IMG/VR virus record: IMGVR_UViG_3300027874_000010
Span: 10,413-74,412 of that record
Origin: a virus
Taxonomy: Duplodnaviria > Caudoviricetes
Length of the DNA: 64,000 nt
Direction: 5' to 3' (one strand)
This document shows positions 1 to 42,239 of this stretch, piece by piece (positions within the stretch are counted from its first letter, which is position 1; the number at the start of each line of letters is the position of its first letter). The notes below the pieces were generated by a model. It was not told where the DNA came from, did no database searches, and was given only the letters and a program-made list of their open reading frames with translations. The translations under genes were made by a program, and so were the position numbers.

Positions 1-3000
1 ATTCATGACGGCATCCACGACGGCGTTGCGGCCGTTCTGCAACGCCGTCTTGACCACCTTGCCCGCGATGTCTGAGGACTCCTCGTGGACCTTCATCGCC
101 CACTTGACCGAGCCAGCATCGCGCATGGCCTGCGTCTCGGGGATGTCCTCGGTCTTGTTCCAGTCGGCGTTGCTCCACACCGCGTGGTCCTTATCGGGCA
201 CGGCGAACTGCTCGGGGCTGCGCTGCAGCGCCGTGCTCTTGCCCGACGCGCCGCCACCGCCCAGGACGCTGACGGTCGGTCCCCCCTCGGCGGGTGGCAC
301 GTAGCCGCCGCCAGCCACACCTTGTTCGTGGTTCTCGTAGATGCCGTGTTGGGCGCGGTCGATGGCCGGCTCGTGTACCTTGTCCAGGCGCGCCTGCACG
401 TAGTCGCCCTTCTTGCCGCCCTCGGGCATGTACAGCTTCTGAGTGTCACCCTTGTCGCGCAGGAAGCCGTGCGGGTTGTCCTTGGTAATCAGCGACGAGG
501 AGTCGCCCGACTCGACGTTCTCGCCGCCGCCGACGCCAGCGGCGAAGCGCCCCGAGTTGTCGCGCGGGTGCTTGTCCTCGAAGTCCTGATCCTTGGTTTC
601 GGGCAGATCGAGGATGTTCAGCCAGGTCTGCGTCTTGGGGCGGAACACCTGTACCGGCTGGCCCGCACCGAGCAGCGAGCGCTCCATGTCGCGGATCTGC
701 TCGGTGACGGCCTTGGTCAACTCGTCGCGGGAGTCCACGATGGTGTGCTCCCACCCGTTCAGGTTGAGCTTGCCGTTCTTGTCGCTCTCCTCGGACGGCG
801 CGTGCCCAGGCCAGTAGCCGGTCGCCTCGTGGTGCAGCCACGCGCACAGCGCCTGGGGGTTGTCCACCTTGTCGGTGAGCGTGTCCACACAGTCATCGAA
901 GTCGCCCGGGTGCCCGCCGTCGAAGCGGTCCTTCCAGTAGTCGAGCAGTGCCTCCAGATTGCCCGCCTTGTAGCTCAGCCGCTCGCCGTCGTCCGCGACC
1001 TTGGTCGGCCACTCGCCCGTGGCGTGCTTGTACAGCCACGCCGTCACTTCGAGGTGGTCGTCCAGGGCTTTCATCGCCGCATCGAAGTCGCCGCCGCCGG
1101 CCGCGAAGGTGTCGCGCCAGTGGTTGAGTAGTTCCACCACCTCGGCGGTCTTCTTCTTCTTGGGCGGCTGGCGCGGGCCACCTGGCGGGACCATGATGCC
1201 GCCGTAGGTGTCGATGCCCTCGGTCAGGATCTTGGTGGCATTCAGCGGGATGGCGACCTGGCGACCATCGGTGCCCGAGTAGGTCAGATCCCCCAGGGTG
1301 ATGTGCATGCCATACAGCGGCGACCTCTGGCCGACGTACTTCGAGACGGCCGAATGCTTGATGTAGGCGATGGTCACGTGCGGCGTGTAGTTGGTGTGCG
1401 TCTCGACGTTGGCGAGCGAGCGCTTGATGATGCCGTTGAGATGGCCCGCGTCGTCGCTGGTGACGCTCACGTACAGCGGCACGCCGCCGCCCTGGTCCTG
1501 GCCGGCGAAGACGTAGTTCGGCCCAAACGTCATGGCGACCGGCGTCTGGTCCTTGACCACGCGCGCCACGTCGCTCGCGCCGACGTTGGGCATCAGCCCG
1601 TACTTGACGGTGACGTGCGGCTCCATCTCGATGCCGCCGCTGCCCAGGTCGTCGGGGTCGATGTGGTCCTCAGCCCACTCGACCAGTTCGTTGCCCAGGA
1701 TCTCTGGCAGGTTGAGTTGCGTCGAGGAGTAGTCGTAGCCGCTGGTCGCGTCGGTCTTGAGCATGTACGGGTCTTGGCCGCACCAGGCGCACACGCCGAG
1801 TTCCACCGAGCGGTAGTGGCCCATGTCGTCTTCGGGGCAGTCGGGGATGATCTCGAACCGCCCGTCGCTGGTCATCTTCGTCTCGATCATCTTCCCTCCT
1901 GGGCCGGCTGAGCCTGACTCCTGTGCGCCACCCGGTGGCGGTACGCCAGGGATGGATGGTGGTGCGCCGCCGCCGCCAGGTCGTCCGCCGAACGCGCCGC
2001 CGCCACCTGGCGGCAGGCCGGGCGGCTGGTCAGGCTGTCCTGGCGGCTTGTCCCCCTTGTGGTAGTTCGCCAGTTCGTCGGAGGGCGTCGGGATCATGTT
2101 GGCTGGCAGCAGCACCCACCCTGGCTGGTCGGTCGGGTAGCCGAGCGTCTGCGCCGCGACGTGCCACGGGATCAGGCCCGCCGTGAAGTCGGCACGCACG
2201 CGGGCGTGCACCTTGTCCACGTCCTCGGTGTAGCCCGGCACCTGGCTGAGGTCGAAGTCGAAGTGGTCAACCTCGGGGAAGTCGGGCTTGATCTGCAGCG
2301 AGAACTGCTGCGCCAGATCCTCGTACATCGGAGCCAGCGAGCCAGTCCACCACTGCGCTCGGTCCGACTCCTTGTTCGAGTTGTTCAGGCCCGACGAGGA
2401 CTGGTGGCCGAGGACCGTCCAGATGATCGACGGCGGCACGTCCAGTACCGCGCAGATCTTGGACTCGGTGACGCGGTTGATGTCGTCCAGGCCCAGGCCC
2501 ACCGGGTCCATGCCCATCTTGGTGTAGGTCGCCTGCCCGTTGTCGATGACCAAGACGTTGCCCCACCCGTCTGGCCCGCCGTACTGCTGGCGGAAGCGCT
2601 GGCGGATGATCTCGCGCTCGTTGGGTTCGACCGAGCGCATGATGTTGAGCAACCCGCTCGGCACGCCCGCGTTCCTGAAGAACGCCGTGGTGAACTCGCG
2701 GCACCACACGTCGATGTCGATGCGCTCGGCCAGCACCGCCAGCGGCGACAGGCCGTAGTAGTCGTTCAGCGGGTTGGGGTTCTTGAAGTGGATGACATCA
2801 TCCGGATCCAGGGTGAACACCCGCTCCCCGATGCGGTACTCGTACGCCTGGATGTAGTCCTTTTCGTCAGGGATGATCCACACGCGGTCGGGTCGCAGCG
2901 GCCAGTACTCGATGATCTTGCCCGAGCGCCCTCGCACGATCTCCCAGTAGGCGTTGCCGTTGATCTTGAGCGCCACCACCGTGGACGACCACAGCATGAA

Positions 3001-3315
3001 CGTCGTCCACCACTTGTTGGGGCGGTTCAGGACATCCAGCGCGGGGTGGTCGAAGATGGCGTCGGCGTCGTGCGCCTTGGAATCGAAGACCACCATGCGC
3101 GGCAGCGCCGCTGACTTCGCGACGGCCTGGCACGCGGCGAAGACGACCTCGGACCCCAGGTAGCCCTTGCGCGCCAACTGGTCGTACGAACGTTGGTTCC
3201 AGATCGGCGTGGCCGGCAGGCCAACCTGCCAGGTCGGGATGGCCGTCGCCACAGCCTGCTTCGTCTCGCCCCCGAACAGAGCGAGCGTGCGGAAGGCGTC
3301 GGCCAGCAGGCCCAT
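1..3315 (-). CDS. Portal protein (HK97-like) fused to an Acb1-like 2H phosphoesterase, two helical repeats and a zeta-toxin-like P-loop kinase; runs off the left edge (>=1105 aa)
   Basis: Absent from the ORF track because there is no stop in the window. ATG at 3315 abuts the upstream TAA. Hand translation found no stop; codon-level checks at 1141-1320 and 1861-2100. Portal motifs GNAYWEIVR, LRPDRV, DVIHFK-NP-D-YYGLSPL, FFRNAGVPSGLL. Then a Pro/Gly linker, 2H motifs HVTVKY (1609-1617) and YTPHVTIAY (1372-1380), the HPRDNSGRF tag, and Walker A GGGGASGKST (235-261) with VHEESS. Located downstream of terL. Confidence 0.9.
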   Translation of the reverse strand, partial: MGLLADAFRTLALFGGETKQAVATAIPTWQVGLPATPIWNQRSYDQLARKGYLGSEVVFAACQAVAKSAALPRMVVFDSKAHDADAIFDHPALDVLNRPNKWWTTFMLWSSTVVALKINGNAYWEIVRGRSGKIIEYWPLRPDRVWIIPDEKDYIQAYEYRIGERVFTLDPDDVIHFKNPNPLNDYYGLSPLAVLAERIDIDVWCREFTTAFFRNAGVPSGLLNIMRSVEPNEREIIRQRFRQQYGGPDGWGNVLVIDNGQATYTKMGMDPVGLGLDDINRVTESKICAVLDVPPSIIWTVLGHQSSSGLNNSNKESDRAQWWTGSLAPMYEDLAQQFSLQIKPDFPEVDHFDFDLSQVPGYTEDVDKVHARVRADFTAGLIPWHVAAQTLGYPTDQPGWVLLPANMIPTPSDELANYHKGDKPPGQPDQPPGLPPGGGGAFGGRPGGGGAPPSIPGVPPPGGAQESGSAGPGGKMIETKMTSDGRFEIIPDCPEDDMGHYRSVELGVCAWCGQDPYMLKTDATSGYDYSSTQLNLPEILGNELVEWAEDHIDPDDLGSGGIEMEPHVTVKYGLMPNVGASDVARVVKDQTPVAMTFGPNYVFAGQDQGGGVPLYVSVTSDDAGHLNGIIKRSLANVETHTNYTPHVTIAYIKHSAVSKYVGQRSPLYGMHITLGDLTYSGTDGRQVAIPLNATKILTEGIDTYGGIMVPPGGPRQPPKKKKTAEVVELLNHWRDTFAAGGGDFDAAMKALDDHLEVTAWLYKHATGEWPTKVADDGERLSYKAGNLEALLDYWKDRFDGGHPGDFDDCVDTLTDKVDNPQALCAWLHHEATGYWPGHAPSEESDKNGKLNLNGWEHTIVDSRDELTKAVTEQIRDMERSLLGAGQPVQVFRPKTQTWLNILDLPETKDQDFEDKHPRDNSGRFAAGVGGGENVESGDSSSLITKDNPHGFLRDKGDTQKLYMPEGGKKGDYVQARLDKVHEPAIDRAQHGIYENHEQGVAGGGYVPPAEGGPTVSVLGGGGASGKSTALQRSPEQFAVPDKDHAVWSNADWNKTEDIPETQAMRDAGSVKWAMKVHEESSDIAGKVVKTALQNGRNAVVDAVMN

Positions 3316-4033: not shown

Positions 4034-4042
4034 GGCCCCACT

Positions 4043-4266: not shown

Positions 4267-4270
4267 ACTG

Positions 4271-4312: not shown

Positions 4313-5788
4313 TCAGATCACCCACACGCCCACCGATCCCTGGACCAGTAGCTCGGTCAGCGACCAGACGGCGGCGTCCAGGCGGTTGGGCGACCAGCCC
4401 GTGGTGACCGGATCCCAGGTGCACATCTCGTCTTCAAGCTCGGTCAGCCCGTTGACGCCGACGTGGTGCACGCGGCCCTGGTCGTACAGCATGGCGACCG
4501 GCTCAGCCCTGATCGCCTTGCCGCGCGAGGCCGAGCGCTTCTGGACGTTGCAGTAGATGCCGCGCTCGCGGGCGGCTGTCTCGATGACCGCCATCGCCAT
4601 GTCGCCGCCGAAGTTCGTCTCGACCACGATCAGGTCGGCCTTCCAGTCGAGCCACGCCTGGACCACCCGCGCGCCCCATCCCTCGGGGTGCAGCTTGCAC
4701 GAGTAGTCCGCGATCACGTAGCCGTGCGGCAGCGCGCCCGAAAGCTGCGTCGAGTCGGCCACCCAGTTGTCGGGCGCGGGTCCAACGCCGCATACCACGA
4801 TGCCCTGCTCGTCGTTCTCGGCACCCGCGCCGCCGGACGGGTCCACGCCGATCACCACACGTCGGAGGTCGGTGGGAGCGCGTGGTACCCGCTGGCTGTC
4901 CAGCAGCGCGCGGTTCCAGAACGAGTCGGGGTTGTCGTCAATGAGCTTGCCCTCAAGCTCCTGGCGACCGAGCCGCGTGCCGGCGTACTTGTCGTAGAAG
5001 AACTGGCGAACGTCGGCGTGCAGGAAGCGGTTCTGCGCCGTGGTCGCGATGGTCAGTGCCGTCTTCGGGTCGTTGACCAGATCCTTGATGCGCTTACGCG
5101 GCTTCGGGGTGGTCGAGGCAACAGCGTGTGGGTGCGGCCCCAACCGCAACCCGAAGCGCATGTGATCGTAGCACTCGTCCAGCTTCTGCCACGCGGCCAG
5201 TTCCTCCAGCCACGCCAGACAGCGGTTGCCACCCGCTCGCAGCCGCTCAACGTCCTCGGGGAAGCTCGCGCCGAACAACTTGCCCTCCGATCCGTTGGGC
5301 CACACGATGTGCAGCCCGCCCTGGGTCTTGAACTTGATGCCGCCCGAGTGCGCCTTCAGGCCAGACGGCCCGGTGACGCACGCCTCCACCGCGTCTCCCA
5401 GGTTGGGGGCGATGATGGCGATACGATGGCCGCCGGGCAACGACTCCAGACACGGTGGACCCAGTACATGTTGGGTCACGTAGTGGGCCATCGCGTCGGT
5501 CTTGCCCGACCCGCGCCCGCCGAGCATCAGCCAGAGCAGCCACCAGTCGCCCTCGGGCGGGATCTGGTGCGGTTGCGGCGTCCAGGCGTTGAGGAGACGG
5601 TCGAGTTCTTCTAGCTCGCGCTTGTTGAGGAGAGGGAGAAGCTCCTGAAGCTCCTCGACCTCAACCCCGAATCTAGCCGCTTGCTGCCGAACTGTCTCCA
5701 GTCGCGGGTCGTCCGGTGGAACGTGTCCGTTTTGCCCGTTCGCGCGCGAGATCAAGGATGCCGCTAATTCGCTCGGCTCGCTGGTCAT
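4313..5788 (-). CDS. terL: Terminase large subunit
   Basis: Walker A LGGRGSGKT, Walker B AWLEE, RNase H-like VIGVDPSGG ... NRLDA; 491 aa. Confidence 0.95.
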   Translation of the reverse strand: MTSEPSELAASLISRANGQNGHVPPDDPRLETVRQQAARFGVEVEELQELLPLLNKRELEELDRLLNAWTPQPHQIPPEGDWWLLWLMLGGRGSGKTDAMAHYVTQHVLGPPCLESLPGGHRIAIIAPNLGDAVEACVTGPSGLKAHSGGIKFKTQGGLHIVWPNGSEGKLFGASFPEDVERLRAGGNRCLAWLEELAAWQKLDECYDHMRFGLRLGPHPHAVASTTPKPRKRIKDLVNDPKTALTIATTAQNRFLHADVRQFFYDKYAGTRLGRQELEGKLIDDNPDSFWNRALLDSQRVPRAPTDLRRVVIGVDPSGGAGAENDEQGIVVCGVGPAPDNWVADSTQLSGALPHGYVIADYSCKLHPEGWGARVVQAWLDWKADLIVVETNFGGDMAMAVIETAARERGIYCNVQKRSASRGKAIRAEPVAMLYDQGRVHHVGVNGLTELEDEMCTWDPVTTGWSPNRLDAAVWSLTELLVQGSVGVWVI

Positions 5789-8931: not shown

Positions 8932-8938
8932 CTAATTC

Positions 8939-32564: not shown

Positions 32565-32746
32565 GCGGGATCTCCGTCCTCGAACTGGATGCCGTGGTCG
32601 CCCGGGTACGTCTGGCGATGCTCGATCTTGGACTGCCAGATCTCGTCGGGGATGCCGTGCGTAAACGCCTCGCAGCGCATGAACGCCTTGGGTGGCGGCG
32701 CTTCGAGGTGGATGCAGTGCAGGCAGATGGCTGGTGGGAACTTCAC
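32546..32746 (-). CDS. Small Cys/His protein (CxxCxH...CxAF..GIP..I...H...GDHGIQF), candidate immunity/inhibitor
   Basis: GTGA-coupled to the polyprotein stop. Confidence 0.8.
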   Translation of the reverse strand: MKFPPAICLHCIHLEAPPPKAFMRCEAFTHGIPDEIWQSKIEHRQTYPGDHGIQFEDGDPAWTAPS

Positions 32747-35700
32747 TCGTCGCTGGCCCGTGGCGCTTTTCCAAACACCTTTTTCATCACGTCACCCGCC
32801 GCTTTCGCGACCGGGTGCTCTGAGCCGAGATAGTACGCCGAGAACGCCTCGGCCCACGCCTCGTCGCGAGATCGCTGCGCGTAGCGCGAGAAGTCACCCA
32901 CGTTCTCGGGAGCCAGCGTCTTGGACAGGAAGAAGAAGCTGTTGAACGCCATGCGCTGATCCTCGGTGAAGGCGTCTCTGTTGTCCTGAATGGCGTTAGC
33001 GACCGCGTGGCCGAACTCGTGCACCGCCGTCGAGCCGGGGATCTTCGACTCGGGGTACGAGAAGCCCGTGTCCGCGCCGTCGCGCTCGTACTTCTCGGCG
33101 GGCAGCGGGTCGTTGGGCTGGTAGCCCGAGCCGAAGTGGATGGCCGAATAGCCGAACTCGTTGCTGCTGGTCGCCATGATCGCCTGCGGGTTCTCGCGCA
33201 TGTAGTCCTTCATGTCCTTGGTGCGCGGCTGGCCGACCTGAAGCAGCATCTTGCCGACCTCGGGGTACTGGTTGGAGAGCTTGCCCAGGAACTGCGAGAC
33301 GGGCACGAGTTGGCGCTTCAGATAACTGTCGTAGTCCACCCGTGCGCGCGGGTTCGGCAGCGTGCCCTTGAGTGCCTTGGCGATCTGTGCCTGACTCCAC
33401 TTGGTAGCGTCGTTCTGGCCGTACGGACTCTCTGGCCCGAGCGCAGCGGGCGGGTTCTTGAGTGGCGCGTCGAGCGCCGCGAACTTGGGCTTCGGAGCGC
33501 CGCCGCCGCCGCCTGAAGTCCAGCGACCACTGTCGTCGCGCGGCTGATCCGGGTCGTACGCCTTCGTCTCTAGATCTGCCCAGGTCGTCTTGGTCTGGAA
33601 CAGCGCTGCGCCATTGGGAGGTGGCCCACCGCCGCGCCGCTTGCTGTACGCCTGGGCGCTGACTTCATCCTTGCCGCCCAGGAGCACGACCTCCTTCTCA
33701 GGTTTGCAGCCGAAGCCGCTGTTCATAGTTGAGAGGATGCGACTGGCCGGTACCTTCGCGGCCATCATCGCGCCCTCGTGCTCACCCGCAAAATTCGCGG
33801 CCTGCTTGAACGAGTAGGACCACGACGACGCCGGCTGCTGTGCCGTTTGCACCACGGCAGGCTTGCCGTTGAACTTCATCCCCGTCTCACGCTGTAACGC
33901 CGCCACGGTTTTGCCAGCGCTGAAGTTCAAACCTCGGTACACGGTCATCTCGGTGATGCCTTTTGCAGCCAGGTCCGCCTGGGTGTTGTCGTACATGGCG
34001 CGAGCAAACGCTCGGTAGGCGGCACCATTCTGCTGGTACTCCTGCTCGACCCTCGCCTGGGCGTCACGTCCCTGGTAGGCAACACGAGCATCGAGGTGCT
34101 CGGTGGTCGCGTCCTCCAGGCCGAACTCGTCCTTGATGGCCTGCTGCATAGCGATGGCTCGGACGTTGGTGTCGCCCGAGGTTTCCGCCCACCCGTGAAC
34201 AAGCCTGGCAGTTTGGTTCACACGGTCCACGTCGTCCATTTGGCGTGACGGCAGGCCAGCACGACTGGCACGGCCCTCATCGAGGAGCCGCTGCACGTAC
34301 TCGTTGAATGGGGCACTGTCCTTGAGACGGTTGCCTAGTTCCCACGAGATGCGCTCCTTGTATTCGTCGCGACTGGACCTGGGATTGAACAGCGCCTTGT
34401 TCGCCGCCTGCTCGTCGGCCCTGGCCGCATTGACTGCCGTGCGGCCCATGCCGAGCGGGTCGTCGGGCGCGGAGGGCGCACCAGTAGCTTCCCATCGCCC
34501 GCGCTCGTCACGCGCCTGGTTGGGGTCGTACTCCTTCAGTTCGAGCAGCGCCCAGGTCTTGTGCGAGGGCAGCGCGCTCGGCAGCGGCGGACCGTCGTAG
34601 GCGTGGTAGGCATCCATCACGTCCTGGCTGTAGGTCTTGCCGTTGAGCATCCCGGTGTACGTCTCGGCCACGAACTCGGCTGGCTCGGTCGCCGCGTAGC
34701 GCGAGACTTGTGCGGCAGCGGCCCGGTGCGCCGGGTTCGCCCACGGCTCGTGTGCGTCGTGCTCCTTGCCCAGGCTCTCCTCGTGCACCGCGTGCTGCAA
34801 GTGCGCCAACTCGTGGGTCATCACATGCGCGGGGTCACTATCCGACCAGGCGTGCGAGTTGGCCTGATCCTGGGCGGTCGCCTTCGCGTTCGACCAGTCG
34901 CCGTTGCGGTTGACCGCCAGGTAGTCGCCGCCACGGTTGTAGCTCGCCAGCGTGTCGCGGTCGGCCATCGACTCGACGGCCACGCTCTTGGGCATGACCA
35001 TCGACGGGTTCTTCTCGGTGATGTCGAACAGTTGCCGGTTGGCCTCGTTCGCAATGGGCAGATCGCCTTGCTCCTCGAAGTGCGGGTACTTGATGCCAAG
35101 GCCCCTGGTGAACTGCGCGGCGTCCTCCAGCGACTTCGCCGGAGCGAACGCGGTTGGGCGCGGGATGACCTCCGGCTCGGGCGGCTTGTAGTCGGGCGGC
35201 AGGATGCTGCCCTTGACGTGGATCACGTCCGGGTTGATGTCGGGAGCCTCGCTGACGAGGATCTTGTCTCCTGGCTGGACGTTGCCCGGCACGTCGTACA
35301 CCACACGGACGCTGATACCCGGGATGGCGGCGGATTGCGCTGCGGTGTGGCGCTCGGCCTCCTCGGGCGTGCCGAACGCCTTCGCGCCGCTCGGGATGGT
35401 GTGGACCGAGCCTTTGTCGAGCAGCATCACCGCCGACAGCGCGTGCGGATCGCTCAGCGGGATCGCTTGGCCCAGGTGCGTCCATCGCCCCCGCTCGTCG
35501 CGCGGCTGGCTCTCGTCGTACGCCTTCGTGAACCAGTGCCGCAGGGAGGCAACCAGTTGCAGGGCGAGCTTGGTGTGGAAGATCTCGCTGGCCCCGTGCG
35601 GCGCGCCGGTTGGCGTGTTGCCCCAGGCTTGCGCCGCCACCACGTCGTCGGTGCTGCCGAGCACGACAACCTCGTCCTCGTTCTTGCAGCCGATGCCGGT

Positions 35701-38700
35701 CTTGAGCGTGCTCAGGATGCGAGACGCGGGCACCGTCGCGGCCATCAACGCCCCAGGGATGTTGCGCCCGCCCGAGAATTTGTACGCCTGACGGAAGCTG
35801 TACGCCCAGGATGACGCGGGCTGATTGCCGACCGTCACCTGATGCGGGTTGCTATCGGGCTTGAAGCCCGCCTGCCGCACCATGTCCGCGTCACGGAATC
35901 TGACGCCGCGATACAGGGTCATCTCCTTGATCCCGTCGCGCGCCAGTTCCTCCTGGGTGTTGTCGTACATAGCACGCGCGAACGCGCGATACGCCTCGCC
36001 GTTCTGTGCGTACACCCTCGCGACGTTGGGGGAGTCCATCGGCATGTGCTCGGTGCGCGCCTTCAGCCCGAACTCCTCGTTGATCGCCTTCTGCATCGCC
36101 ACCGCGTTGATGTTGCCGTCGCCCGACGTGCCAGCCCACATCGCGACCAGGCTGTTGACCGCGTGGTGCTGGCGTGTCTCGCCGGGCTTCAGCAGCGCCG
36201 TGGACAGGCTCATGGCGTACTTGCGGAACGCGGGATTGTTCGCCAGTCGCCCCGAGAGGTTCCGCACGATGTCGCCCTTGAAGTAGTTCGGGTTCAGGTT
36301 GTCGTTGTTGAGCGCCTGCTCAGCCGCCTGCTCGCGCGACTGGGCCTCGGCCTGACCCCACTCCTTGGGCGGCGCGGACATGGCGTTGCCGCCCACCGTC
36401 GTCCAGCGTCCATACTCGTCGCGCGGCTGGTTCTCATCGAATGCCTTGAGTTCGAGCCAGCGCACAGCGGTCTTGGTGTTCACCACATCCTCGGGGAAGC
36501 TCGGCGGGCCGTTACCGTTGGCTGACCAACTGAACGCGGCCACGTCGTCCTTGCCGCCCAGGACCACGACCTCCTTCTCGTCTTTGCACCCGAAGCCGGT
36601 CTTCATGGTCGAGAGGATTCGCGAGGCGGGTACCGTCGCCGCGATGACCGCGCCGTGCGTATCCGAGCCGCCCGCGAAGCCGGAGGCCACGTCGAAGCTG
36701 TACGCCCAGGACGACGCGGGCTGCTCGTTCACCGTCGCCGGGTGCGACTTGTCGTCGTACTCGAAGCCCATCGGCGGGTTGTCAGGCCCGAACTGGAGGC
36801 CACGGTACAGCGTCATCTCGCTGATGCCCTGGCGCGCCAGTTCCTCCTGGGTGTTCTGATACATCGCCCGCGCGAACGCGCGCAGGCCCGGCCCCTGCTC
36901 CCTGTACTCCTTGCGCGCCTCGAACTTCAGGTCCGCTGCGCTCTTGTCCCACGATGGTCCGCTGAGCAGATGGTCCATGCGGGCGTCGTTCAGGTGGAAC
37001 TCGTCGCGTATGGCCTGCTGCATGATGACCGACTGGACGTTGTTGTCACCCGAGCTATTGGCCCACTGCGCGATCAACCCCGACGCCGTGTCTACGGGGC
37101 TGGAGGTGCCAAAGCGCTTCTCGCCGTCAGCCAGGTACTTCTCCCAGTCGGGGTTGCCCTGCAGCCGATACGCGAGATCCTTGCTCAGGCGCTCCTTGTA
37201 CTCCGAGGCCGAGTGGGAATCGAACTGGCTGTCGATGGCCGCATCCGCGACGTTCTCGCGTCCGATGAGCGTGGAGCCTGACTCCTTGGCTGGAGCCTTG
37301 AGCGCATCCTCCTCGGCGTTGCCCTCAGCGGTCCAGCGGCCGGCGGCATCGCGCGCCTGGTTCGGGTCGTAGTCCTTTGTCTCCAGGGATCTCCAGGCGG
37401 TCTTGACGTTGAACAGTCCCTCGGGACTGAGCGGGCGTCCGGAGAGCTTGCTCCAGGCTTGTGCGGCGACCTGATCGTTACCGCCCAGGACCACCACTTC
37501 GTGTTCCCGCTCGCACCCGATACCCGAGTTCAAGGTGCTCAGGATGCGACTGGCGGGCACCGTTGCCGCCAGCATCGCGCCCCGCGAGTCGAAGTGACCA
37601 TGCAGCGCACTCGCGGCCTGCGTCACGACGCCAGCGATGGTCGCGCTCCCAAAATCGTAGGACCACGATGAGGCGGGCTGCTGGCTGACCGTCGTCGCGT
37701 GGGGTTCACCGTCGAACGTCAGGCCAGGGGGAGTCTGAGAGCCGAAGCTCATGCCGCGATACAGGGTCATCTCCTTGATGCCCTTTGAAGCGAGGTCGGC
37801 CTGAGTGTTGTCGTACATCGCCCGCGCAAACGCGCGGTAGGCCGCACCGTTGGCCTCGTAGTCGGGTCGCGCCCCTTCAATGCCCAGGTGATCCGTCACG
37901 GCGTCCTTCAGTCCGAACTCGTCGCGGATCGCCATCTGCATTGCCACGGCCTGCGGTCGGTTGTCACCCGAGGACTGCGCCCACAACTGGACCAGCGACG
38001 ACGCCGCCGTCTCGGACTGAGTGGGCACGTGCGCCCTGAGCACGTCGTACATCACCACCCTGGGCGGAACGGGATGCGCTCGCGTCAGGTACTCCTTCCA
38101 GGCGGGGTTGTCCTCAAGTCGGTCGCTGAGTTCCTTGGCGATGCGGACTTTTTCCTCGGGCCGCGAGGTCGAGTGGTCGTTGAGCGCACGGTCGGCTTCG
38201 TCCCGCCGCGCGTGCGCCACGATTTGCTCCTTGGACCAACCAGGCTTGCCGAAGGCTTCGATGGCCGAGGCTGTGGGTGCGCCGGTCGCCGCCCACCGTC
38301 CGCGCTCGTCGCGCGCCTGGTCCGGGTCGTACGCCTTGAAATCAAGCGATAACCCGTTATCGGCCCAGGTCTTGGTGTGGACCAGATCGCCCGGCTCGGA
38401 CGGCGGGAAGCCGTGGTTGGCGTACCAGGCCCACGAGTTGACTTCATCCTTGCCACCCAGGACCACGACCTCCTTCTCGTCCTTGCAACCCCACCCCGAG
38501 TCCATCGTGCTCAAGATCCGTGAGGCGGGCACGGTCGCGGCGAGCATCGCGCCGGTACCGCTCTCGGTCGGCGCGAAGCCGCTGGCCTGGTGGTAGCTGT
38601 AGGACCACGACGAGGCGGGCTGCTCGACGGTGGTGACCGCGTGCTCGCGGCCGTCGAAGATCAGACCCGTCTTCGGATCCGGGATGGTGGGGTGCGGCGT

Positions 38701-41421
38701 CACGCCGCCGACGCCGGTATCGAAGCTCATACCGCGATACAGGGTCATCTCGGTAATGCCTTTTGCAGCCAGGTCCGCCTGGGTGTTTTCATACATCGCC
38801 CGCGCGAAATCGCGGTACGCCTCGCCCCTGATGGCGTACTCCTGGCGCATCTCCTCCTTCAGGCTGGCCGCGCTCGTTCCACTCGATTCCCAGGACTGGC
38901 CGCTGAGCAGATGGTCAGTCGTCGCGTCTTTCAGCCCGAACTCGTCCTTGACAGCCTGCTGCAGCGCCGCCGGAATCACGTGGTTGTCGCCTGATGAGCC
39001 GGCCCAACTCTGGATCAGGTTGGACGCAGCCCAGGCACGCTCGGCAGCGACACTCCTGGCAGGCGCTTCCATCGGCTCGCTGCCCGACCAGTTCTGGTAC
39101 GGGTGCTCGCGGAACGCCTCGGCCTGAGAGTGCGCGTAGTCGTTGAAGGCGGCACTGCCCTCCAGTCGATCCCCGATCTCCTGGGAGATGCGCGCCTTGT
39201 ACTCCTGCTTGGAGGCGCTCATGTCGTTGATCGCCTCGTCCACTTGGTTGTGCGCCGTCTCCGCTGCCGCCGTGCCCGCCGCCGGACTGCCCGGGAAGTA
39301 CGAGCCTTCTTCGGGGTTCGGCAGGCTCGGCGTGCCGGTCGCCGCCCACCGTCCGCGCTCGTCACGCGGCTGGCTCGGGTCGTAGTCCTTGCGCTCCAGG
39401 GGGAGCCATACTGTCTTGACGCTCAACAGCGGCCCGGTGCTCTTGGGTGGACCGGCACCACCCGCGTCCCACGCCTGGGCAGTCACTTCATCTTTGCCGC
39501 CGAGCAACACCACCTCGCGCTCGGGCTTGCAACCAAAGCCCGAGTTCATGGTTGAGAGGATGCGACTGGCGGGGACGGTCGCCGCCATGACCGCACCCGG
39601 GTAGCTGCTGCCAGCTTCGGACGAGAACGTCGTGGCCTGGGAATAGGCGTACGCCCAGGACGAGGCCGGCTGCTGCACCACCGTGGTGCGGTGCGGCTCG
39701 CCATCCCCCTGCAGGCCGGCTGGCAACTCGGCATCGCGGGCGAAGTGCATCCCGCGATAGATGGTCATCTCCTTGATGCCCTTCGCCGCCAGGTCTGCCT
39801 GGGTGTTGTCGTACATCGCTCGCACGAACGCGCGGTAGCCATCCCCGAACGTGCCACCCGAGAGGCCGGTGGACTGGTTCGAGAAGTCACTGGCTCGACT
39901 GAGGTCCGTCCGGCCCACGTGGTCCATCGTCGCGTCCTTCAGGCCGAACTCGTCCTTGATGGCCTGCTGCATGGCGACCGAGGCGCTGCTGGAGTCCATC
40001 GAGGTGTTGGCCCATCCCTCGATCAGTTGGCTGACCAACTTCTCCGACGCCGCCGGACCGGTCGATGCGCCCACGTAGTCGCGGAACTTGACCCACCGTG
40101 GATCTTTGTTGGCGCGGACGGCGATCTCCTTGGCGATGCGCGCCTTGTACGCCTCGCGTGTGGCACTCTGGTCGTTGAGCGCGGCCTCGGTCGCTTTGAG
40201 CATCGCCTGCCCGGAGTCCTTGCCCGTGTCAGGCGCGCGAGTCACGTCGCCCGCGCCCACCGTCCAGCGACCGGATTCGTCGCGCGGTTCGCTCTCGTCG
40301 TACGCCTTGAATTGTCCAGCGCGTTGGACAGTTTTTCTGCGCGGGTTGTACTTGGCTCCTGGGCGCGACAGCATGCCCGCGATTCGCGGACCGTCGCCTT
40401 TGCCGAAGAAGTTGCCCGCGCCCGTCCACGAGTTCACCGTGTCCTGTCCGCCGAGCACGACGATCTCGTTCTCGTCCTTGCAGCCCATGCCGCTTTTCAT
40501 CGTGCTCAGGATGCGTTCGGCCGGCACCGTCGCGGCCATGACCGTGCCCACGACGCCGCCCGAGAAGGCACGCGCCACGTCCGGGTTGTAGGACCACGAC
40601 GACGCGGGCTGCTGAGTGACCGTCAGCGTCTCGGTGGCGGGCACGTCCTGATTCAGGCCGAAGCCTGCGGCGTGGGCGTCAGACGAGCGATCCCAGGACA
40701 TGCCGCGATACAGCGTCATCTCCGAGATCCCCTGGGCCTTCAGTTCAGCCTGAGTGTTGTCGTACATCGCCCTGGCGAACGCGCGATACGCCTCGCCGTT
40801 TTTGGCGTAGTCCCGCTCGGCCTGCTCCATCGTGCCTGCCAGGTCTTCGCTCAGGAAGTGCTCGGTGCTGGCGTTGGTCAGCCCGAACTCGCGCTGCACG
40901 GCGAGTTGCATCGCCACTGCCTGGCGGTCGCCGTCACCCGAGGTGCCCGCCCACTGGTTGACGAGGATGCTGACGCCGGTCTTCAGCGGGTCGGCCTCGC
41001 GGTCCCACATCGGCTTGAGCATCGGGTTGTGACGACCCGTCGCGACCATCTCTTTGAAGGCCGCGTTGTCGCGCAGCCGCGTGGCGATCTCGTCGGTAAT
41101 GCGCGCCTTGTACTCCTCGGCCTTGGCGTTGGGATCGTTGAGCTTGGCGTCGGCCTCCGCGACACGCTCATTGACGCGCTCCTCGCTGGCGCGCTTGGGC
41201 TGCGCCGTACCACCGCCCGAGTCCGTCCAGCGCCCACCTTCGTCGCGCGGCTGAGACGGATCGAAGTCCTTCTTCACCCACACGCCGCTGCGATTTTCCA
41301 GAAAGCTAAATTTTCGGAGCTTGGTGGTCGGCCGCTGCTCCTCGGCCGCGAGGTCCGCCCAAATCTTGTCGAGGATGGCCTCGTCCTCGGGCGTGGTGTC
41401 GTACGGCGAGCCGACGCTCAC
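32743..41421 (-). CDS. Nine-module polyprotein (2892 aa): seven ADP-ribosyltransferase-like domains + two HExxH metallopeptidases, each with an N-terminal PRDxxGRW tag
   Basis: Seven copies of EMT[LIV]YRG...QPASSW[SA]Y...AA[TK]VPA.RILST..[ST]G.GC..E.E.V.LG (R-S-ExE); THELAH and VHEFGH modules with SRYA...E..AE. Confidence 0.92.
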   Translation of the reverse strand: MSVGSPYDTTPEDEAILDKIWADLAAEEQRPTTKLRKFSFLENRSGVWVKKDFDPSQPRDEGGRWTDSGGGTAQPKRASEERVNERVAEADAKLNDPNAKAEEYKARITDEIATRLRDNAAFKEMVATGRHNPMLKPMWDREADPLKTGVSILVNQWAGTSGDGDRQAVAMQLAVQREFGLTNASTEHFLSEDLAGTMEQAERDYAKNGEAYRAFARAMYDNTQAELKAQGISEMTLYRGMSWDRSSDAHAAGFGLNQDVPATETLTVTQQPASSWSYNPDVARAFSGGVVGTVMAATVPAERILSTMKSGMGCKDENEIVVLGGQDTVNSWTGAGNFFGKGDGPRIAGMLSRPGAKYNPRRKTVQRAGQFKAYDESEPRDESGRWTVGAGDVTRAPDTGKDSGQAMLKATEAALNDQSATREAYKARIAKEIAVRANKDPRWVKFRDYVGASTGPAASEKLVSQLIEGWANTSMDSSSASVAMQQAIKDEFGLKDATMDHVGRTDLSRASDFSNQSTGLSGGTFGDGYRAFVRAMYDNTQADLAAKGIKEMTIYRGMHFARDAELPAGLQGDGEPHRTTVVQQPASSWAYAYSQATTFSSEAGSSYPGAVMAATVPASRILSTMNSGFGCKPEREVVLLGGKDEVTAQAWDAGGAGPPKSTGPLLSVKTVWLPLERKDYDPSQPRDERGRWAATGTPSLPNPEEGSYFPGSPAAGTAAAETAHNQVDEAINDMSASKQEYKARISQEIGDRLEGSAAFNDYAHSQAEAFREHPYQNWSGSEPMEAPARSVAAERAWAASNLIQSWAGSSGDNHVIPAALQQAVKDEFGLKDATTDHLLSGQSWESSGTSAASLKEEMRQEYAIRGEAYRDFARAMYENTQADLAAKGITEMTLYRGMSFDTGVGGVTPHPTIPDPKTGLIFDGREHAVTTVEQPASSWSYSYHQASGFAPTESGTGAMLAATVPASRILSTMDSGWGCKDEKEVVVLGGKDEVNSWAWYANHGFPPSEPGDLVHTKTWADNGLSLDFKAYDPDQARDERGRWAATGAPTASAIEAFGKPGWSKEQIVAHARRDEADRALNDHSTSRPEEKVRIAKELSDRLEDNPAWKEYLTRAHPVPPRVVMYDVLRAHVPTQSETAASSLVQLWAQSSGDNRPQAVAMQMAIRDEFGLKDAVTDHLGIEGARPDYEANGAAYRAFARAMYDNTQADLASKGIKEMTLYRGMSFGSQTPPGLTFDGEPHATTVSQQPASSWSYDFGSATIAGVVTQAASALHGHFDSRGAMLAATVPASRILSTLNSGIGCEREHEVVVLGGNDQVAAQAWSKLSGRPLSPEGLFNVKTAWRSLETKDYDPNQARDAAGRWTAEGNAEEDALKAPAKESGSTLIGRENVADAAIDSQFDSHSASEYKERLSKDLAYRLQGNPDWEKYLADGEKRFGTSSPVDTASGLIAQWANSSGDNNVQSVIMQQAIRDEFHLNDARMDHLLSGPSWDKSAADLKFEARKEYREQGPGLRAFARAMYQNTQEELARQGISEMTLYRGLQFGPDNPPMGFEYDDKSHPATVNEQPASSWAYSFDVASGFAGGSDTHGAVIAATVPASRILSTMKTGFGCKDEKEVVVLGGKDDVAAFSWSANGNGPPSFPEDVVNTKTAVRWLELKAFDENQPRDEYGRWTTVGGNAMSAPPKEWGQAEAQSREQAAEQALNNDNLNPNYFKGDIVRNLSGRLANNPAFRKYAMSLSTALLKPGETRQHHAVNSLVAMWAGTSGDGNINAVAMQKAINEEFGLKARTEHMPMDSPNVARVYAQNGEAYRAFARAMYDNTQEELARDGIKEMTLYRGVRFRDADMVRQAGFKPDSNPHQVTVGNQPASSWAYSFRQAYKFSGGRNIPGALMAATVPASRILSTLKTGIGCKNEDEVVVLGSTDDVVAAQAWGNTPTGAPHGASEIFHTKLALQLVASLRHWFTKAYDESQPRDERGRWTHLGQAIPLSDPHALSAVMLLDKGSVHTIPSGAKAFGTPEEAERHTAAQSAAIPGISVRVVYDVPGNVQPGDKILVSEAPDINPDVIHVKGSILPPDYKPPEPEVIPRPTAFAPAKSLEDAAQFTRGLGIKYPHFEEQGDLPIANEANRQLFDITEKNPSMVMPKSVAVESMADRDTLASYNRGGDYLAVNRNGDWSNAKATAQDQANSHAWSDSDPAHVMTHELAHLQHAVHEESLGKEHDAHEPWANPAHRAAAAQVSRYAATEPAEFVAETYTGMLNGKTYSQDVMDAYHAYDGPPLPSALPSHKTWALLELKEYDPNQARDERGRWEATGAPSAPDDPLGMGRTAVNAARADEQAANKALFNPRSSRDEYKERISWELGNRLKDSAPFNEYVQRLLDEGRASRAGLPSRQMDDVDRVNQTARLVHGWAETSGDTNVRAIAMQQAIKDEFGLEDATTEHLDARVAYQGRDAQARVEQEYQQNGAAYRAFARAMYDNTQADLAAKGITEMTVYRGLNFSAGKTVAALQRETGMKFNGKPAVVQTAQQPASSWSYSFKQAANFAGEHEGAMMAAKVPASRILSTMNSGFGCKPEKEVVLLGGKDEVSAQAYSKRRGGGPPPNGAALFQTKTTWADLETKAYDPDQPRDDSGRWTSGGGGGAPKPKFAALDAPLKNPPAALGPESPYGQNDATKWSQAQIAKALKGTLPNPRARVDYDSYLKRQLVPVSQFLGKLSNQYPEVGKMLLQVGQPRTKDMKDYMRENPQAIMATSSNEFGYSAIHFGSGYQPNDPLPAEKYERDGADTGFSYPESKIPGSTAVHEFGHAVANAIQDNRDAFTEDQRMAFNSFFFLSKTLAPENVGDFSRYAQRSRDEAWAEAFSAYYLGSEHPVAKAAGDVMKKVFGKAPRASDE
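38348..38361. promoter_or_regulatory. Palindrome GATAACCCGTTATC (copy 5 of 7)
   Basis: In the linker between polyprotein modules 3 and 4. Confidence 0.65.
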
Positions 41422-42239
41422 GCGCTCAGGCCCTTGGCCTTGAGGTACGCGGCCATCACCTGGCGACCCTGGGAAGTCGGGTCAGTGTCCATCGTCATGC
41501 CCGTTGGTCCGCCGTGCTCCTTCCAGAACGCCGCGCCGCCGGGCATCTTCATCAGGTTGCTGAGCGTGCCCGCGCCCTTGTACTGGGCCGGCCAGGTGGG
41601 GCGGAAGCCGACCGGAGCGTCGAAGCCGATGCGCGCCCAGGTGTAGTAGCCGTTTTCCTCGGGGTGGAACTCCTTGGAGCCGACGCCGGTGAGTTGGACC
41701 TTGGGCAGGCCAGCCTGGTGCGCTGCCTCGACCGCCCGCGCCATGACCTGCACGCCCTTGCCGGATCCGCGCGCCTCGGGCTTCAGGTAGATCTGTTCGT
41801 AGTGCAGGTACGGGCCGTTCGGCGCACCGTAGGTGCCGTCGCCGTTGTAGATCATGGCGACGGCCTGGTCTTCGATGTCGGGGTGCTCCGCGACGATGGC
41901 TACGCCTGGACCGTGCATCTGGTCATCCCAGTTGACGACCTTGATCTTGGCCCCGTTCGGAGCACCGACCAGTCCCGCGATCTGGTGGTCCGAGAGATCC
42001 CTACCCAGGAGCTTCTGCACGCGCGCGTGCACATCCTTGGCGACTTCGAGCGGACCGCTGCTGCCACCAGCAGTCCAGCGACCACCCTCATCTCGCTCCT
42101 CGGTTTCCCACGCTGCCTTGCGGTTTTGATCCGGCCGAAATAACAAACGCCGGGTAGGGACAATCTCCCCTACCTCGGCGCTAACGACCCGCCGCAGGGT
42201 CGCCTCCATGTCCAGCAGTGCGGCTCTTGGCTCAGCCAT
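41418..42239 (-). CDS. Tagged GNAT-like acetyltransferase
   Basis: Tag KAAWETEERDEGGRW; GNAT motif A IYLKPEARGSGKG; GYYTWARIGF. Confidence 0.8.
   Translation of the reverse strand: MAEPRAALLDMEATLRRVVSAEVGEIVPTRRLLFRPDQNRKAAWETEERDEGGRWTAGGSSGPLEVAKDVHARVQKLLGRDLSDHQIAGLVGAPNGAKIKVVNWDDQMHGPGVAIVAEHPDIEDQAVAMIYNGDGTYGAPNGPYLHYEQIYLKPEARGSGKGVQVMARAVEAAHQAGLPKVQLTGVGSKEFHPEENGYYTWARIGFDAPVGFRPTWPAQYKGAGTLSNLMKMPGGAAFWKEHGGPTGMTMDTDPTSQGRQVMAAYLKAKGLSA

What the first reader, a model, noticed from the sequence alone, without database searches (positions are those of the whole stretch)
546..42115. One short tag (K-x-[YFW]-D-x-x-[QE]-[PAH]-R-D-x-x-G-R-[WF]) marks 13 enzyme-domain starts in four separate genes: a candidate capsid-cargo address plus cleavage code
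Seen: 9 copies in the polyprotein, 2 in the 549-aa gene (~32455-32500 and ~31511-31555), 1 in the GNAT gene (~42074-42115) and 1 in the portal fusion just before the kinase (~546-580). Most copies are followed by a Gly-rich spacer and then a catalytic domain (ART, zincin, ParB-like, GNAT, P-loop kinase). Each is preceded by a Lys in a recurring context (LERK|D, LDFK|A, LETK|D, LELK|A, WFTK|A, LELK|E, LETK|A, VEFK|E, LPETK|D), often with a second KT(x)W site ~8-12 aa earlier; the portal N-terminus also has GETK|Q. Known: HK97-type prohead proteases cleave after Lys during head maturation. Inference: the head protease cuts at these Lys and frees effectors that each begin with the tag, and the tag binds capsid, scaffold or portal to load unrelated enzymes. 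This would be a plug-in effector-packaging system.
Basis: partly seen in the sequence, partly recalled or inferred. Interest (0 to 1): 0.92.

Follow-up and report, generated by a model that had tools for sequence, protein, structure and literature searches.

The report
Boundary tag on phage head-cargo enzymes
A 74-kb uncultivated phage puts the same short peptide in front of about fourteen enzyme modules (seven of them copies of one ADP-ribosyltransferase); the peptide recurs in thousands of other phages next to portal and MuF head proteins, so it probably marks enzymes that are packed in the virus head, cut apart and injected, though neither cutting nor packing has been shown.

Summary
The strict pattern occurs 9 times, all in the 2892-aa ORF (0 expected). 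Degenerate copies sit in the 549-aa gene (2), the GNAT gene (1) and the portal fusion (1). One or two more lie just left of the window. Seven of the nine polyprotein modules are paralogues of one C3-like ADP-ribosyltransferase, so the independent contexts number about eight, not 13.

The tag is not peculiar to this phage. A profile of it finds 2720 protein clusters, the best being 1-7-kb 'strings' with up to 20 copies. A DNA pattern finds at least 118 IMG/VR contigs. There the tag follows portal or MuF domains and precedes ARTs, kinases, GNATs, nucleases and zincins. These are the phage-type polyvalent proteins of Iyer et al. 2017. I found no description of the motif itself.

AlphaFold leaves the tag disordered. 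It almost never ends a protein and it often begins one.

Cleavage by the HK97-family prohead protease is plausible. The tag context E-x-K|A matches the predicted capsid maturation site EQK180|A, and in one other phage both switch to His. It is unproven. The 'capsid address' half of the reading is weaker, because modules already fused to portal, MuF or capsid protein also carry the tag.

The parts
32743..41421 (-). 2892-aa polyvalent protein: 50-aa leader, then nine tag-headed modules. Modules 1-6 and 8 are paralogous C3-like ADP-ribosyltransferase modules. Module 7 (HELAH) and module 9 (HEFGH) are zincin-like.
   Evidence: paralogy 37-48% identity; invariant YRG, SSW, ExE; AF2 pTM 0.79; VIA Z 6-7 to iota Ia, CDTa, C3; weak ATLF/M91 hits; HExxH
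41227..41271 (-). Tag 1, KDFDPSQPRDEGGRW (after the 50-aa leader)
40264..40308 (-). Tag 2, KAYDESEPRDESGRW
39346..39390 (-). Tag 3, KDYDPSQPRDERGRW
38293..38337 (-). Tag 4, KAYDPDQARDERGRW
37333..37377 (-). Tag 5, KDYDPNQARDAAGRW
36403..36447 (-). Tag 6, KAFDENQPRDEYGRW
35482..35526 (-). Tag 7, KAYDESQPRDERGRW (heads zincin module 7)
34492..34536 (-). Tag 8, KEYDPNQARDERGRW
   Evidence: residues 1-30 of this module have pLDDT below 50
33520..33564 (-). Tag 9, KAYDPDQPRDDSGRW (heads zincin module 9)
33577..40335 (-). Span holding the seven upstream K-T-x-W elements of the internal junctions, at 40321-40335, 39403-39417, 38359-38373, 37390-37404, 36460-36474, 34546-34560 and 33577-33591. This is a lineage-specific pre-tag element, hh.TKT.W..LE.K.
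   Evidence: the same element occurs in the related protein P0001
30915..32564 (-). 549-aa gene: leader helix, tag, a roughly 300-aa segment with a ParB-like domain, second tag, zincin-like domain (HHEIGH)
   Evidence: (phrog_2859, ParB-like phrog_1033)
32451..32498 (-). Degenerate tag KEWDESQHPRNERGEF (the 'HPR' sister form)
31512..31553 (-). Degenerate tag KFREDQARDESGRW
41418..42239 (-). 273-aa GNAT acetyltransferase with a 40-aa leader that shares RAALLDME with the 784-aa protein
   Evidence: (PF00583, 23.8 bits against a cutoff of 20.7)
42075..42119 (-). Degenerate tag KAAWETEERDEGGRW
1..3315 (-). Portal fusion (1229 aa in all; the last 125 aa lie left of the window): portal, Gly/Pro linker, 2H phosphoesterase, repeats, tag, zeta-toxin-like P-loop kinase
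   Evidence: PF04860 6.8e-55, PF13563, PF06414 2.1e-10
544..594 (-). Degenerate tag KDQDFEDKHPRDNSGRF just before the kinase; a K-T-Q-T-W element lies at 622-636
4313..5788 (-). Large terminase (context: head-morphogenesis operon)
   Evidence: PF03237, PF17289

Best explanation
The tag is this phage's version of a very widespread linear motif that I could not find named anywhere. The consensus is h-h-[K/A]-[F/Y]-D-P-x-[Q/E]-P-R-D-x-x-G-R-W-[T/S] followed by a Gly-rich spacer. A sister form, K-[D/E]-[W/F]-[D/N]-E-x-x-H-P-R-[D/G]-x-x-G-[R/K]-[F/W], is interchangeable with it.

The motif sits at the N-terminal edge of each cargo module in phage-type polyvalent proteins and in portal- or MuF-fused effectors. 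Here it heads seven paralogous C3-like ADP-ribosyltransferases, four zincin-like domains, a ParB-like module, a GNAT, a zeta-toxin-like kinase and a DUF7178 module.

Shown:
- The motif is real and its conservation is at the peptide level.
- It is predicted disordered.
- It is always followed by a domain-sized stretch.
- It is associated with head genes.

Inferred, as the most likely mechanism:
- The tagged proteins enter the prohead, either fused to the portal or through short N-terminal leader helices.
- The HK97-family prohead protease then cuts after the Lys two residues before the aromatic residue (E-x-K|A/D/E). This is the same kind of site as the predicted capsid maturation site EQK180|A.
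- About fourteen separate enzymes are released, each beginning with the tag and a flexible spacer, and are ejected with the DNA.

What the invariant part of the tag binds is unresolved. I read it as a recognition handle for processing or ejection rather than as the capsid-loading address.
For: 1. Reality: 9 strict copies against 0 expected, and 12 core copies against 0.28 expected. Synonymous codons vary among the copies.
2. Spread: the tag profile finds 2720 clusters at E<=1e-3 and 551 at E<=1e-10. The top hits are 1000-7334 aa with up to 20 matched stretches.
3. Architecture in other phages: upstream of the tag lie portal families (12 of 85 segments) and Phage_Mu_F (6). Downstream lie ARTs (17), DUF7178, Zeta_toxin, PI3/PI4 kinase, topoisomerase IB, ParB_N, InPase, nuclease toxins and zincins.
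4. Genomic context: 64 of 118 tag loci have a portal, MuF, S78 protease or capsid gene within the short flanks. The tag starts 6-30 residues after the portal domain in most of the 11 of 36 portal ORFs that carry one.
5. Position in the protein: only 3 of 149 proteins have fewer than 60 aa after the last tag. The median spacing is 249 aa and the median leader is 43 aa. Some proteins start M-A/T-F-D-P.
6. Disorder: pLDDT is below 50 for residues 1-30 of a module that otherwise folds with pTM 0.79.
7. Protease link:
   - HK97-family protease, TIGR01543 65.1 bits against a cutoff of 59, and PF04586.
   - Capsid junction EQK|ALSEG..GGYLVP is conserved in relatives down to 47% identity and aligns with RcGTA ...EGK|ALNS.
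   - Tag contexts are LETK|A, LELK|A, LERK|D and similar.
   - In L057 the capsid junction is ETH|ALLG, and two of three tags read REQH|DFDP and KARH|AFDP. His is not among the common residues at that position in 120 tags.
   - The residues just before the tag are alike within a protein and differ between lineages. That is what a lineage-specific protease site next to a universal handle would look like.
Against: - No cleavage has been observed for any tagged protein. The capsid maturation site itself is only predicted, by analogy with HK97 K103|S104, which I recall from memory.
- The Lys is not universal. At -1 the frequencies are K 29-53% and A 19-25%. Some lineages have F, Y, D or G contexts.
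- The His covariation rests on a single contig, and one of its three tags lacks His.
- The capsid site works without any tag, so the protease does not need the tag.
- 80 related head loci, with 56 S78 proteases, 45 portals and 27 MuF-like ORFs, carry no tag.
- Zincin HExxH motifs are enriched in tagged proteins (70 of 150 against 14 shuffled; 13 of 113 against 2.6). All four zincins of this phage sit in tagged proteins. That fits the rival view of autoprocessing by metallopeptidases.
- A partial match to the motif core occurs in a baseplate hub protein of solved structure, so the core is not exclusive to head cargo.
Confidence: 0.5

Rival explanations
1. The tag is the processing site of the zincin-like metallopeptidase domains carried by the polyvalent proteins themselves, acting in cis or in trans (the autoprocessing proposed by Iyer et al. 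2017). The head protease is not involved.
For: - Iyer et al. propose processing of polyvalent proteins by their MPTase domains.
- HExxH occurs in 70 of the 150 best tag proteins against 14 after shuffling, and in 13 of 113 IMG/VR tag ORFs against 2.6.
- This phage has four intact HExxH domains, all inside tagged proteins.
Against: - Most tagged ORFs have no HExxH (100 of 113 in IMG/VR).
- The four zincins here share no detectable similarity beyond the tag, while the tag is nearly invariant.
- The GNAT and the portal fusion have no peptidase of their own.
- phi24B gp47, a virion polyvalent protein with metallopeptidase motifs, has no tag.
Confidence: 0.2
2. The tag is a capsid-loading address. 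It binds capsid protein, scaffold, protease or portal, and by itself brings any fused enzyme into the prohead.
For: - Stand-alone cargo proteins carry the tag near their N-terminus, sometimes at residue 2-6.
- The tag is disordered and followed by a flexible spacer, like known targeting peptides.
- Tagged genes cluster with head genes.
- Precedents recalled from memory: the T4 capsid targeting sequence and the C-terminal targeting tail of the HK97 protease (Duda et al. 2013).
Against: - Modules already fused to portal, MuF, or protease-capsid fusions also carry the tag. No address is needed there.
- The tag is almost invariant across phages whose capsid and scaffold proteins are unrelated in sequence.
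- Related heads assemble without it.
- Stand-alone proteins here also have a separate leader helix before the tag (RAALLDME is shared by the GNAT and the 784-aa protein). That helix could be the real address.
Confidence: 0.2
3. The tag acts after assembly. It is either an N-terminal threading or ejection leader for passage through portal and tail, or a handle recognised by a conserved host factor once the modules are inside the cell.
For: - The tag always lies on the N-terminal side of a module and never at a C-terminus.
- It is disordered with a Gly spacer.
- Its near-universal sequence across hosts suggests a conserved partner or channel.
- A partial match to the core lies in the baseplate hub proteins that line the tail tip.
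Against: There is no direct evidence. The motif is acidic or neutral and resembles no known chaperone, protease or translocation signal that I can name. The hub match is partial (E 6e-4) and may be unrelated.
Confidence: 0.1
4. The tag has no biochemical role. It is a conserved joint that only provides homology for shuffling modules by recombination.
For: The same tag flanks very different modules, and the two tag forms mix within single proteins. This resembles the conserved pre-toxin motifs of polymorphic toxins.
Against: - Codons differ while residues are kept.
- Nine or more positions are nearly invariant across thousands of clusters.
- Tags also occur at the extreme N-terminus of single-domain proteins.
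Confidence: 0.05

Closest known systems
Phage-type polyvalent proteins, including portal- and MuF-fused effectors (Iyer, Burroughs, Anand, de Souza, Aravind 2017, PMC5512222)
   Same: Many effector domains sit in one polypeptide, encoded next to the portal-terminase head genes. The domain repertoire matches: ART, zincin MPTase, 2H phosphoesterase, zeta-like kinase, ParB-like, GNAT, InPase. The proteins are predicted to be packaged and injected, with proteolytic processing proposed.
   Different: Term searches of that paper for linker, interdomain, boundary, low-complexity and glycine-rich found nothing, and the motif passages I read concerned catalytic motifs, not this one. Seven tandem paralogues of one ART in a single protein is unusual. 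The ART module is not recognised by Pfam ART-PolyVal or any other model.
T4 capsid targeting sequence on internal proteins (IPI-III, Alt), removed by the gp21 prohead protease (own knowledge; reviews PMC9026906, PMC9958956 listed)
   Same: A short N-terminal peptide on otherwise unrelated head-internal, injected proteins, coupled to cleavage by the prohead protease. It is transferable in principle.
   Different: The sequence differs and so does the cleavage rule (L/I-x-E| for T4). The protease family differs. The T4 peptide is cut off, whereas here the tag would stay on the product. The T4 signal is lineage-restricted, whereas this tag spans thousands of diverse phages and is also internal to polyproteins.
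HK97 capsid maturation: gp4 protease, cleavage of gp5 after Lys103, C-terminal targeting tail of the protease (own knowledge; Duda, Oh, Hendrix 2013, cited in PMC12749128, not readable here)
   Same: This phage has an HK97-family protease and a capsid protein with a 180-residue N-terminal scaffold domain. The predicted cut after Lys (EQK180|A) has the same form as the Lys context before the tags.
   Different: HK97 has no tagged cargo. Its targeting signal is the C-terminus of the protease. Cleavage at the tags is only inferred.
MuF polymorphic toxins of temperate phages (Jamet et al. 2017, PMC5576092)
   Same: In other phages the tag sits 6-20 residues after the MuF H-P-x-C-R-C end and before a toxin or effector domain.
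   Different: In this phage the MuF-like protein (262 aa) ends at HPNC and has no extension. That paper has no occurrence of 'conserved motif', 'linker', 'junction' or 'cleav'.
SPN3US and phiKZ-type giant phages, where the prohead protease cuts many ejection proteins (PMC5694885, PMC7411985, PMC10052503; listed, abstracts only read)
   Same: Many head-internal ejection proteins are processed by the prohead protease during maturation.
   Different: Different phage lineage; I did not compare the sites. Those are separate proteins, not tag-punctuated polyproteins.

Membership tests
Phage-type polyvalent proteins (Iyer et al. 2017) | Two to fifteen unrelated effector domains in one polypeptide | tested here: met
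   The polyprotein has 7 ART-like and 2 zincin-like modules. The 549-aa protein has a ParB-like and a zincin-like domain. The portal fusion has portal, 2H and zeta-like kinase domains.
Phage-type polyvalent proteins (Iyer et al. 2017) | Encoded in a phage with a portal-terminase packaging system, alongside virion genes | tested here: met
   Terminase, portal, MuF-like protein, HK97 protease and HK97-fold capsid gene lie on the same strand of a 74.4-kb virus record.
Phage-type polyvalent proteins (Iyer et al. 2017) | Zincin-like metallopeptidase domain(s) interspersed | tested here: inconclusive
   There are four intact HExxH motifs with a downstream E-x-x-A-E-like helix. Pfam hits are only sub-threshold: ATLF 18 bits, M91 16 bits. 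No fold was predicted.
Phage-type polyvalent proteins (Iyer et al. 2017) | Packaged in the virion and delivered into the host | not testable with these tools
   This needs virion proteomics. The only experimental precedent found is phi24B gp47, which lacks the tag.
Substrates of an HK97-family prohead protease | The phage encodes an HK97-family (S78) prohead protease | tested here: met
   TIGR01543 scores 65.1 bits against a cutoff of 59. PF04586 scores 4.1e-16.
Substrates of an HK97-family prohead protease | Candidate sites resemble the capsid protein's own maturation site | tested here: inconclusive
   The predicted capsid site EQK180|A compares with tag contexts L-E-x-K|A/D/E. A K-to-H switch occurs in both in L057. 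That is one lineage only, and the capsid site itself is only predicted.
Substrates of an HK97-family prohead protease | Cleavage actually occurs in proheads | not testable with these tools
   No proteomic data exist for this uncultivated phage.
T4-type capsid targeting sequence | N-terminal peptide followed by an L/I-x-E| site cut by a gp21-type protease | tested here: not met
   The sequences show no L/I-x-E| rule next to the tag. The only head-protease match found is the HK97 (S78) family.
T4-type capsid targeting sequence | The peptide is sufficient to load a foreign protein | not testable with these tools
   This needs a fusion-packaging assay.
R-S-ExE (C3/iota-like) ADP-ribosyltransferases | Catalytic Arg, Ser-x-Ser and E-x-E motifs in order | tested here: met
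   Y200-R201-G202 is invariant, and PASSW and E280-x-E282 are invariant or nearly so, across the seven modules and four outside homologues.
R-S-ExE (C3/iota-like) ADP-ribosyltransferases | ART fold | tested here: inconclusive
   The AF2 model has pTM 0.79. Foldseek finds only ART toxins at the top, but at E>=0.07. VIA gives Z 6-7, rmsd 4.4-4.9 A over 170-183 residues, to iota Ia, CDTa and C3. That is below the tool's Z 8 comfort level. No Pfam or PHROG ART model matches.
MuF polymorphic toxins (Jamet et al. 2017) | N-terminal MuF domain fused to a C-terminal toxin | tested here: not met
   The MuF-like 262-aa protein ends at ...HPNCVRVFLPVFE with no extension. It is recognised only by an iterated profile, not by Pfam.

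The most novel reading that the evidence does not exclude
A single transferable peptide of about 15 residues, with a lineage-specific protease site immediately before it, is a general 'cargo module' code of tailed phages. Any domain placed behind it is released inside the head by the maturation protease and keeps the peptide as its N-terminal handle for delivery into the host. If so, the tag would identify the injected effector repertoire of thousands of uncultivated phages from sequence alone. It would also give a universal cassette for loading foreign proteins into phage heads.
Probability: 0.3. Interest if true: 0.85.

Novelty: new variant of a known kind. Interest (0 to 1): 0.62.

Why it matters
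Polyvalent and portal- or MuF-fused effectors are thought to be the first weapons a phage injects, but which proteins are packaged and how they are cut apart is known for very few phages.

A short, almost invariant peptide at the start of each cargo module would give three things:
- A sequence-only way to list candidate injected effectors. The domains found behind it include ARTs, kinases, GNATs, nucleases, 2H and Acb1-like phosphodiesterases, and topoisomerase IB.
- A concrete processing model that is testable with one virion N-terminomics experiment.
- If the peptide is sufficient, a handle for loading proteins into phage particles.

This phage is an extreme case, with seven diverged copies of one Arg-type ADP-ribosyltransferase in one chain. 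That raises the separate question of whether the copies have seven different host targets.

Tried and rejected
No binding test was run.
- The search for related loci with the tag alignment failed because no stretch was conserved enough. I replaced it with a degenerate DNA pattern.
- tblastn against GenBank phages found no tag matches, either with a 24-aa tag or with a six-tag protein. Short motifs are beyond BLAST here, so I could not name a cultured phage with the tag.
- Pfam, PHROGs and NCBIfam have no model covering the tag or the ART module.
- Ten full-text literature searches and four papers searched by term found no description of the motif. Absence from this library is not proof that it is unpublished.
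- The RcGTA structure paper does not mention capsid cleavage. Duda et al. 2013 is not held. The HK97 K103|S104 site is therefore from memory.
- A wider covariation test failed for lack of data. Five long tag-bearing contigs have no PF05065-type capsid gene. The contigs of P0016, P0004 and P0029 do not reach a capsid gene. Only L057 and L114 were usable.
- Rejected: the tag as part of each catalytic fold. It is disordered and precedes unrelated folds.
- Rejected: chance or low complexity.
- Rejected: recent gene conversion.
- phi24B gp47, the one polyvalent protein with virion proteomics that I found, has no tag. Its data cannot be used.

Full report
**What the window is.** The window is bases 10413-74412 of a single 74,412-bp virus record. 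It is 64-67% G+C, and no GenBank phage is close to it. The late genes run on the minus strand in this order:
- a small zinc-ribbon ORF
- a GNAT gene (41418-42239)
- a 2892-aa ORF (32743-41421)
- a 549-aa gene (30915-32564)
- small ORFs
- a tail-fibre-like gene with an S74 chaperone domain (22971-26063)
- a 2305-aa LamG-rich protein (15086-22003)
- a plus-strand block
- the large terminase (4313-5788)
- a 1229-aa portal fusion (window 1-3315, continuing to the left)

Left of the window (locus L001) follow four more genes:
- a 784-aa protein (DUF7178, coiled coil, HEMGH)
- a 262-aa protein that an iterated profile places with MuF-type head proteins
- an HK97-family prohead protease with a long C-terminal extension
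- an HK97-fold capsid protein with a 180-residue N-terminal scaffold domain

**The observation.** The strict pattern gives nine hits, all in the 2892-aa ORF. Shuffles give none. The core RD..GR[WF] gives 12 hits against 0.28 expected. Two belong to a sister form, K-E-W-D-E-S-x-H-P-R-x-x-x-G-x-F, which is also present in the 784-aa protein outside the window. All copies are followed by a Gly-rich or small-residue spacer. The nine strict copies and the two K-E-W-D-E-S-x-H-P-R-type copies (one in the 549-aa gene, one in the 784-aa protein) have Lys two residues before the aromatic residue. Eight internal junctions also have a K-T-x-W element 8-14 residues further up.

One important correction applies. 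Modules 1-6 and 8 are 37-48% identical paralogues of one roughly 310-aa module. 'Nine enzyme-domain starts' in the polyprotein therefore means one family seven times plus two zincin-like modules. The nine tag-coding segments differ at synonymous sites, so selection acts on the peptide.

**What the modules are.**
- The repeated module keeps Y-R-G, P-A-S-S-W and E-x-E invariant or nearly so across the seven copies and four outside homologues.
- Its AlphaFold model has pTM 0.79. The model resembles iota toxin Ia, CDTa and C3 exoenzyme at Z 6-7 over 170-183 residues. Foldseek ranks ART toxins first, but not significantly. I read it as an Arg-type R-S-ExE ADP-ribosyltransferase that no Pfam or PHROG model recognises.
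- Modules 7 and 9, the C-terminus of the 549-aa protein and the C-terminus of the 784-aa protein each have an intact HExxH. They share no other detectable similarity.
- The 549-aa protein has a ParB-like segment.
- The GNAT passes the Pfam threshold.
- The portal fusion carries a 2H phosphoesterase and a zeta-toxin-like kinase. Only one of its several domain junctions has the tag, so the tag does not mark every boundary.

**The tag elsewhere.** A profile of the 14 tag regions (alignment A1) was searched against 1.84 billion cluster representatives. It finds 2720 proteins at E<=1e-3 and 551 at E<=1e-10. The best are 1000-7334 residues long with up to 20 matched stretches.

From 120 non-redundant viral copies the consensus is h-h-[K/A/G/R]-[F/Y]-D-P-x-[Q/E]-P-R-D-x-x-G-R-W-[T/S]-x-G-G-G. 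The QPRD..GRW and HPR..GRF forms alternate within single proteins.

In the 150 best proteins:
- the median spacing between tags is 249 residues
- only 3 of 149 have fewer than 60 residues after the last tag
- the first tag lies after a median leader of 43 residues

Some proteins begin M-A/T-F-D-P.

Pfam tallies show portal families and Phage_Mu_F upstream of the tag. Downstream they show ART families, DUF7178, Zeta_toxin, PI3/PI4-kinase, topoisomerase IB, ParB_N, InPase, nuclease toxins and zincins. In the giant proteins they also show GNAT, 2H and Acb1. No conjugation marker appeared.

With profiles iterated from this phage's own proteins, 64 of 118 tag loci have a portal, MuF-like, S78 protease or capsid gene within their short flanks. 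The tag begins 6-30 residues after the portal domain in most of the 11 of 36 portal ORFs that carry one. It flanks the MuF domain in 17 of 26 ORFs. Three ORFs are tag-cargo-protease-capsid fusions.

This is the architecture that Iyer et al. (2017, PMC5512222) call phage-type polyvalent proteins. That paper proposes packaging into the head and processing by the zincin domains. My term searches of it turned up no mention of this motif. The MuF-toxin paper has no occurrence of the terms I searched for. My other full-text searches also found nothing.

**How it probably works.** The tag is predicted disordered (pLDDT below 50 for residues 1-30). It is followed by a flexible spacer and precedes unrelated folds. 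It is therefore a short linear motif read by something else.

Three points bear on the head protease:
1. The phage has an HK97-family protease. Its capsid protein aligns with RcGTA and related capsid proteins so that the mature N-arm would begin at A181 after E-Q-K180. That E-Q-K|A-L-S-E-G junction is kept in relatives down to 47% identity. Most tags here sit in L-E-x-K|A/D/E.
2. In contig L057 the capsid protein is 31% identical, and the aligned junction is E-T-H|A-L-L-G. Two of its three tags read R-E-Q-H|D-F-D-P and K-A-R-H|A-F-D-P. His is rare at that position.
3. The few residues before the tag are alike within a protein and differ between lineages, for example E-K|D-[F/W], V-V-Y-L-D-T-K|Y, [L/A/M]-F|Y and F-[S/A]-x|D-W. 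A lineage-specific protease site abutting a universal handle would look like this.

Against this stand several points:
- The Lys is not universal.
- The covariation rests on one lineage.
- The capsid site needs no tag.
- Zincin motifs are enriched in tagged proteins.

The 'address' idea is weakened by tags on modules that are already fused to portal, MuF or capsid protein. It is also weakened by 80 related head loci that carry proteases, portals and MuF-like genes but no tag. The stand-alone proteins here also have a separate N-terminal helix before the tag. RAALLDME is shared by the GNAT and the 784-aa protein without DNA identity. That helix is an alternative candidate for the loading signal.

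**Verdict.** 'Plug-in marker of head cargo modules' is well supported by comparative data. 'Cut after Lys by the head protease' is plausible, with thin circumstantial support. 'The tag is the capsid address' is the weakest part.

The protein class is known. The conserved tag as a feature of that class appears undescribed in what I could search, although earlier notes of this scan have seen the same motif in other phage genomes. I rate it a new variant of a known kind, of moderate to high interest, because one proteomics experiment would settle it.

Noticed in passing
window 32743-41421: Seven tandem, 37-48% identical copies of one Arg-type (R-S-ExE) ADP-ribosyltransferase module sit in one chain. 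Only four homologues of similar length were found in 5.8 billion proteins, and no Pfam or PHROG model matches. The divergence suggests seven different targets or an arms race.
   Followed up: partly
window 42120-42239 and L001:9644-9700: The GNAT and the 784-aa protein share the leader peptide RAALLDME just before their tags without DNA identity. The 549-aa protein has a similar amphipathic leader. This may be a phage-specific loading helix.
   Followed up: partly
L001:3760-5703: The HK97-family prohead protease is 647 aa, about 475 aa longer than the catalytic domain. The extension has an Asp-rich tract, a K-K-W-D-P-D segment that mimics the start of the tag, and two repeats of an L-P-H-H-x-x-D-G-S element.
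   Followed up: no
L065, L066, L074 (IMG/VR contigs): Single ORFs of 1396-1938 aa combine an N-terminal tag, unknown cargo, an S78 protease domain and a capsid-like domain. Cargo, protease and shell would then be one polypeptide. The capsid assignment comes from an iterated profile that may have drifted.
   Followed up: partly
PDB 8FQC chain C1 and 9RKU chain Af, residues 81-102: The baseplate hub proteins of Agrobacterium phages Milano (gp26) and 7-7-1 (gp113) contain Q-P/N-R-D-A-S-G-R-F-x-x-S-G-G-P-G. This is a partial match to the tag core (E 6e-4 and 0.015) in a tail protein of solved structure.
   Followed up: partly
L121-L200 (80 IMG/VR loci with related capsid genes): Relatives with 27-92% identical capsid proteins keep the E-Q-K|A-L-S-E-G junction in the five relatives examined (L121-L125). 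They have mostly unfused portals of 440-525 aa and no tag anywhere within 10 kb of the capsid gene.
   Followed up: yes
L120 (contig of P0001): A related 2585-aa polyprotein has nine tags and the same K-T-x-W...L-E-x-K pre-tag element. It is followed by a gene whose leader and tag resemble those of the 549-aa gene here, so the cargo operon is conserved in at least one other phage.
   Followed up: partly
P0007, P0008, P0019, P0026, P0027, P0030: A second recurrent junction element, Q-I-K-S-A-I-G-N-x-G-x-F-D-P-x-x-x-x-I, ends many modules immediately before the tag in giant polyvalent proteins of other phages.
   Followed up: no
window 15086-22003 and 22971-26063: A 2305-aa protein has three or more LamG/concanavalin-like domains, and a 1030-aa fibre has an endosialidase-chaperone (S74) C-terminus. 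These are probably the host-recognition proteins.
   Followed up: no
L001:394-879: Two small adjacent ORFs (77 and 80 aa) each carry an LGFP repeat. I recall this cell-wall-binding repeat as typical of Corynebacteriales, which would hint at the host group.
   Followed up: no
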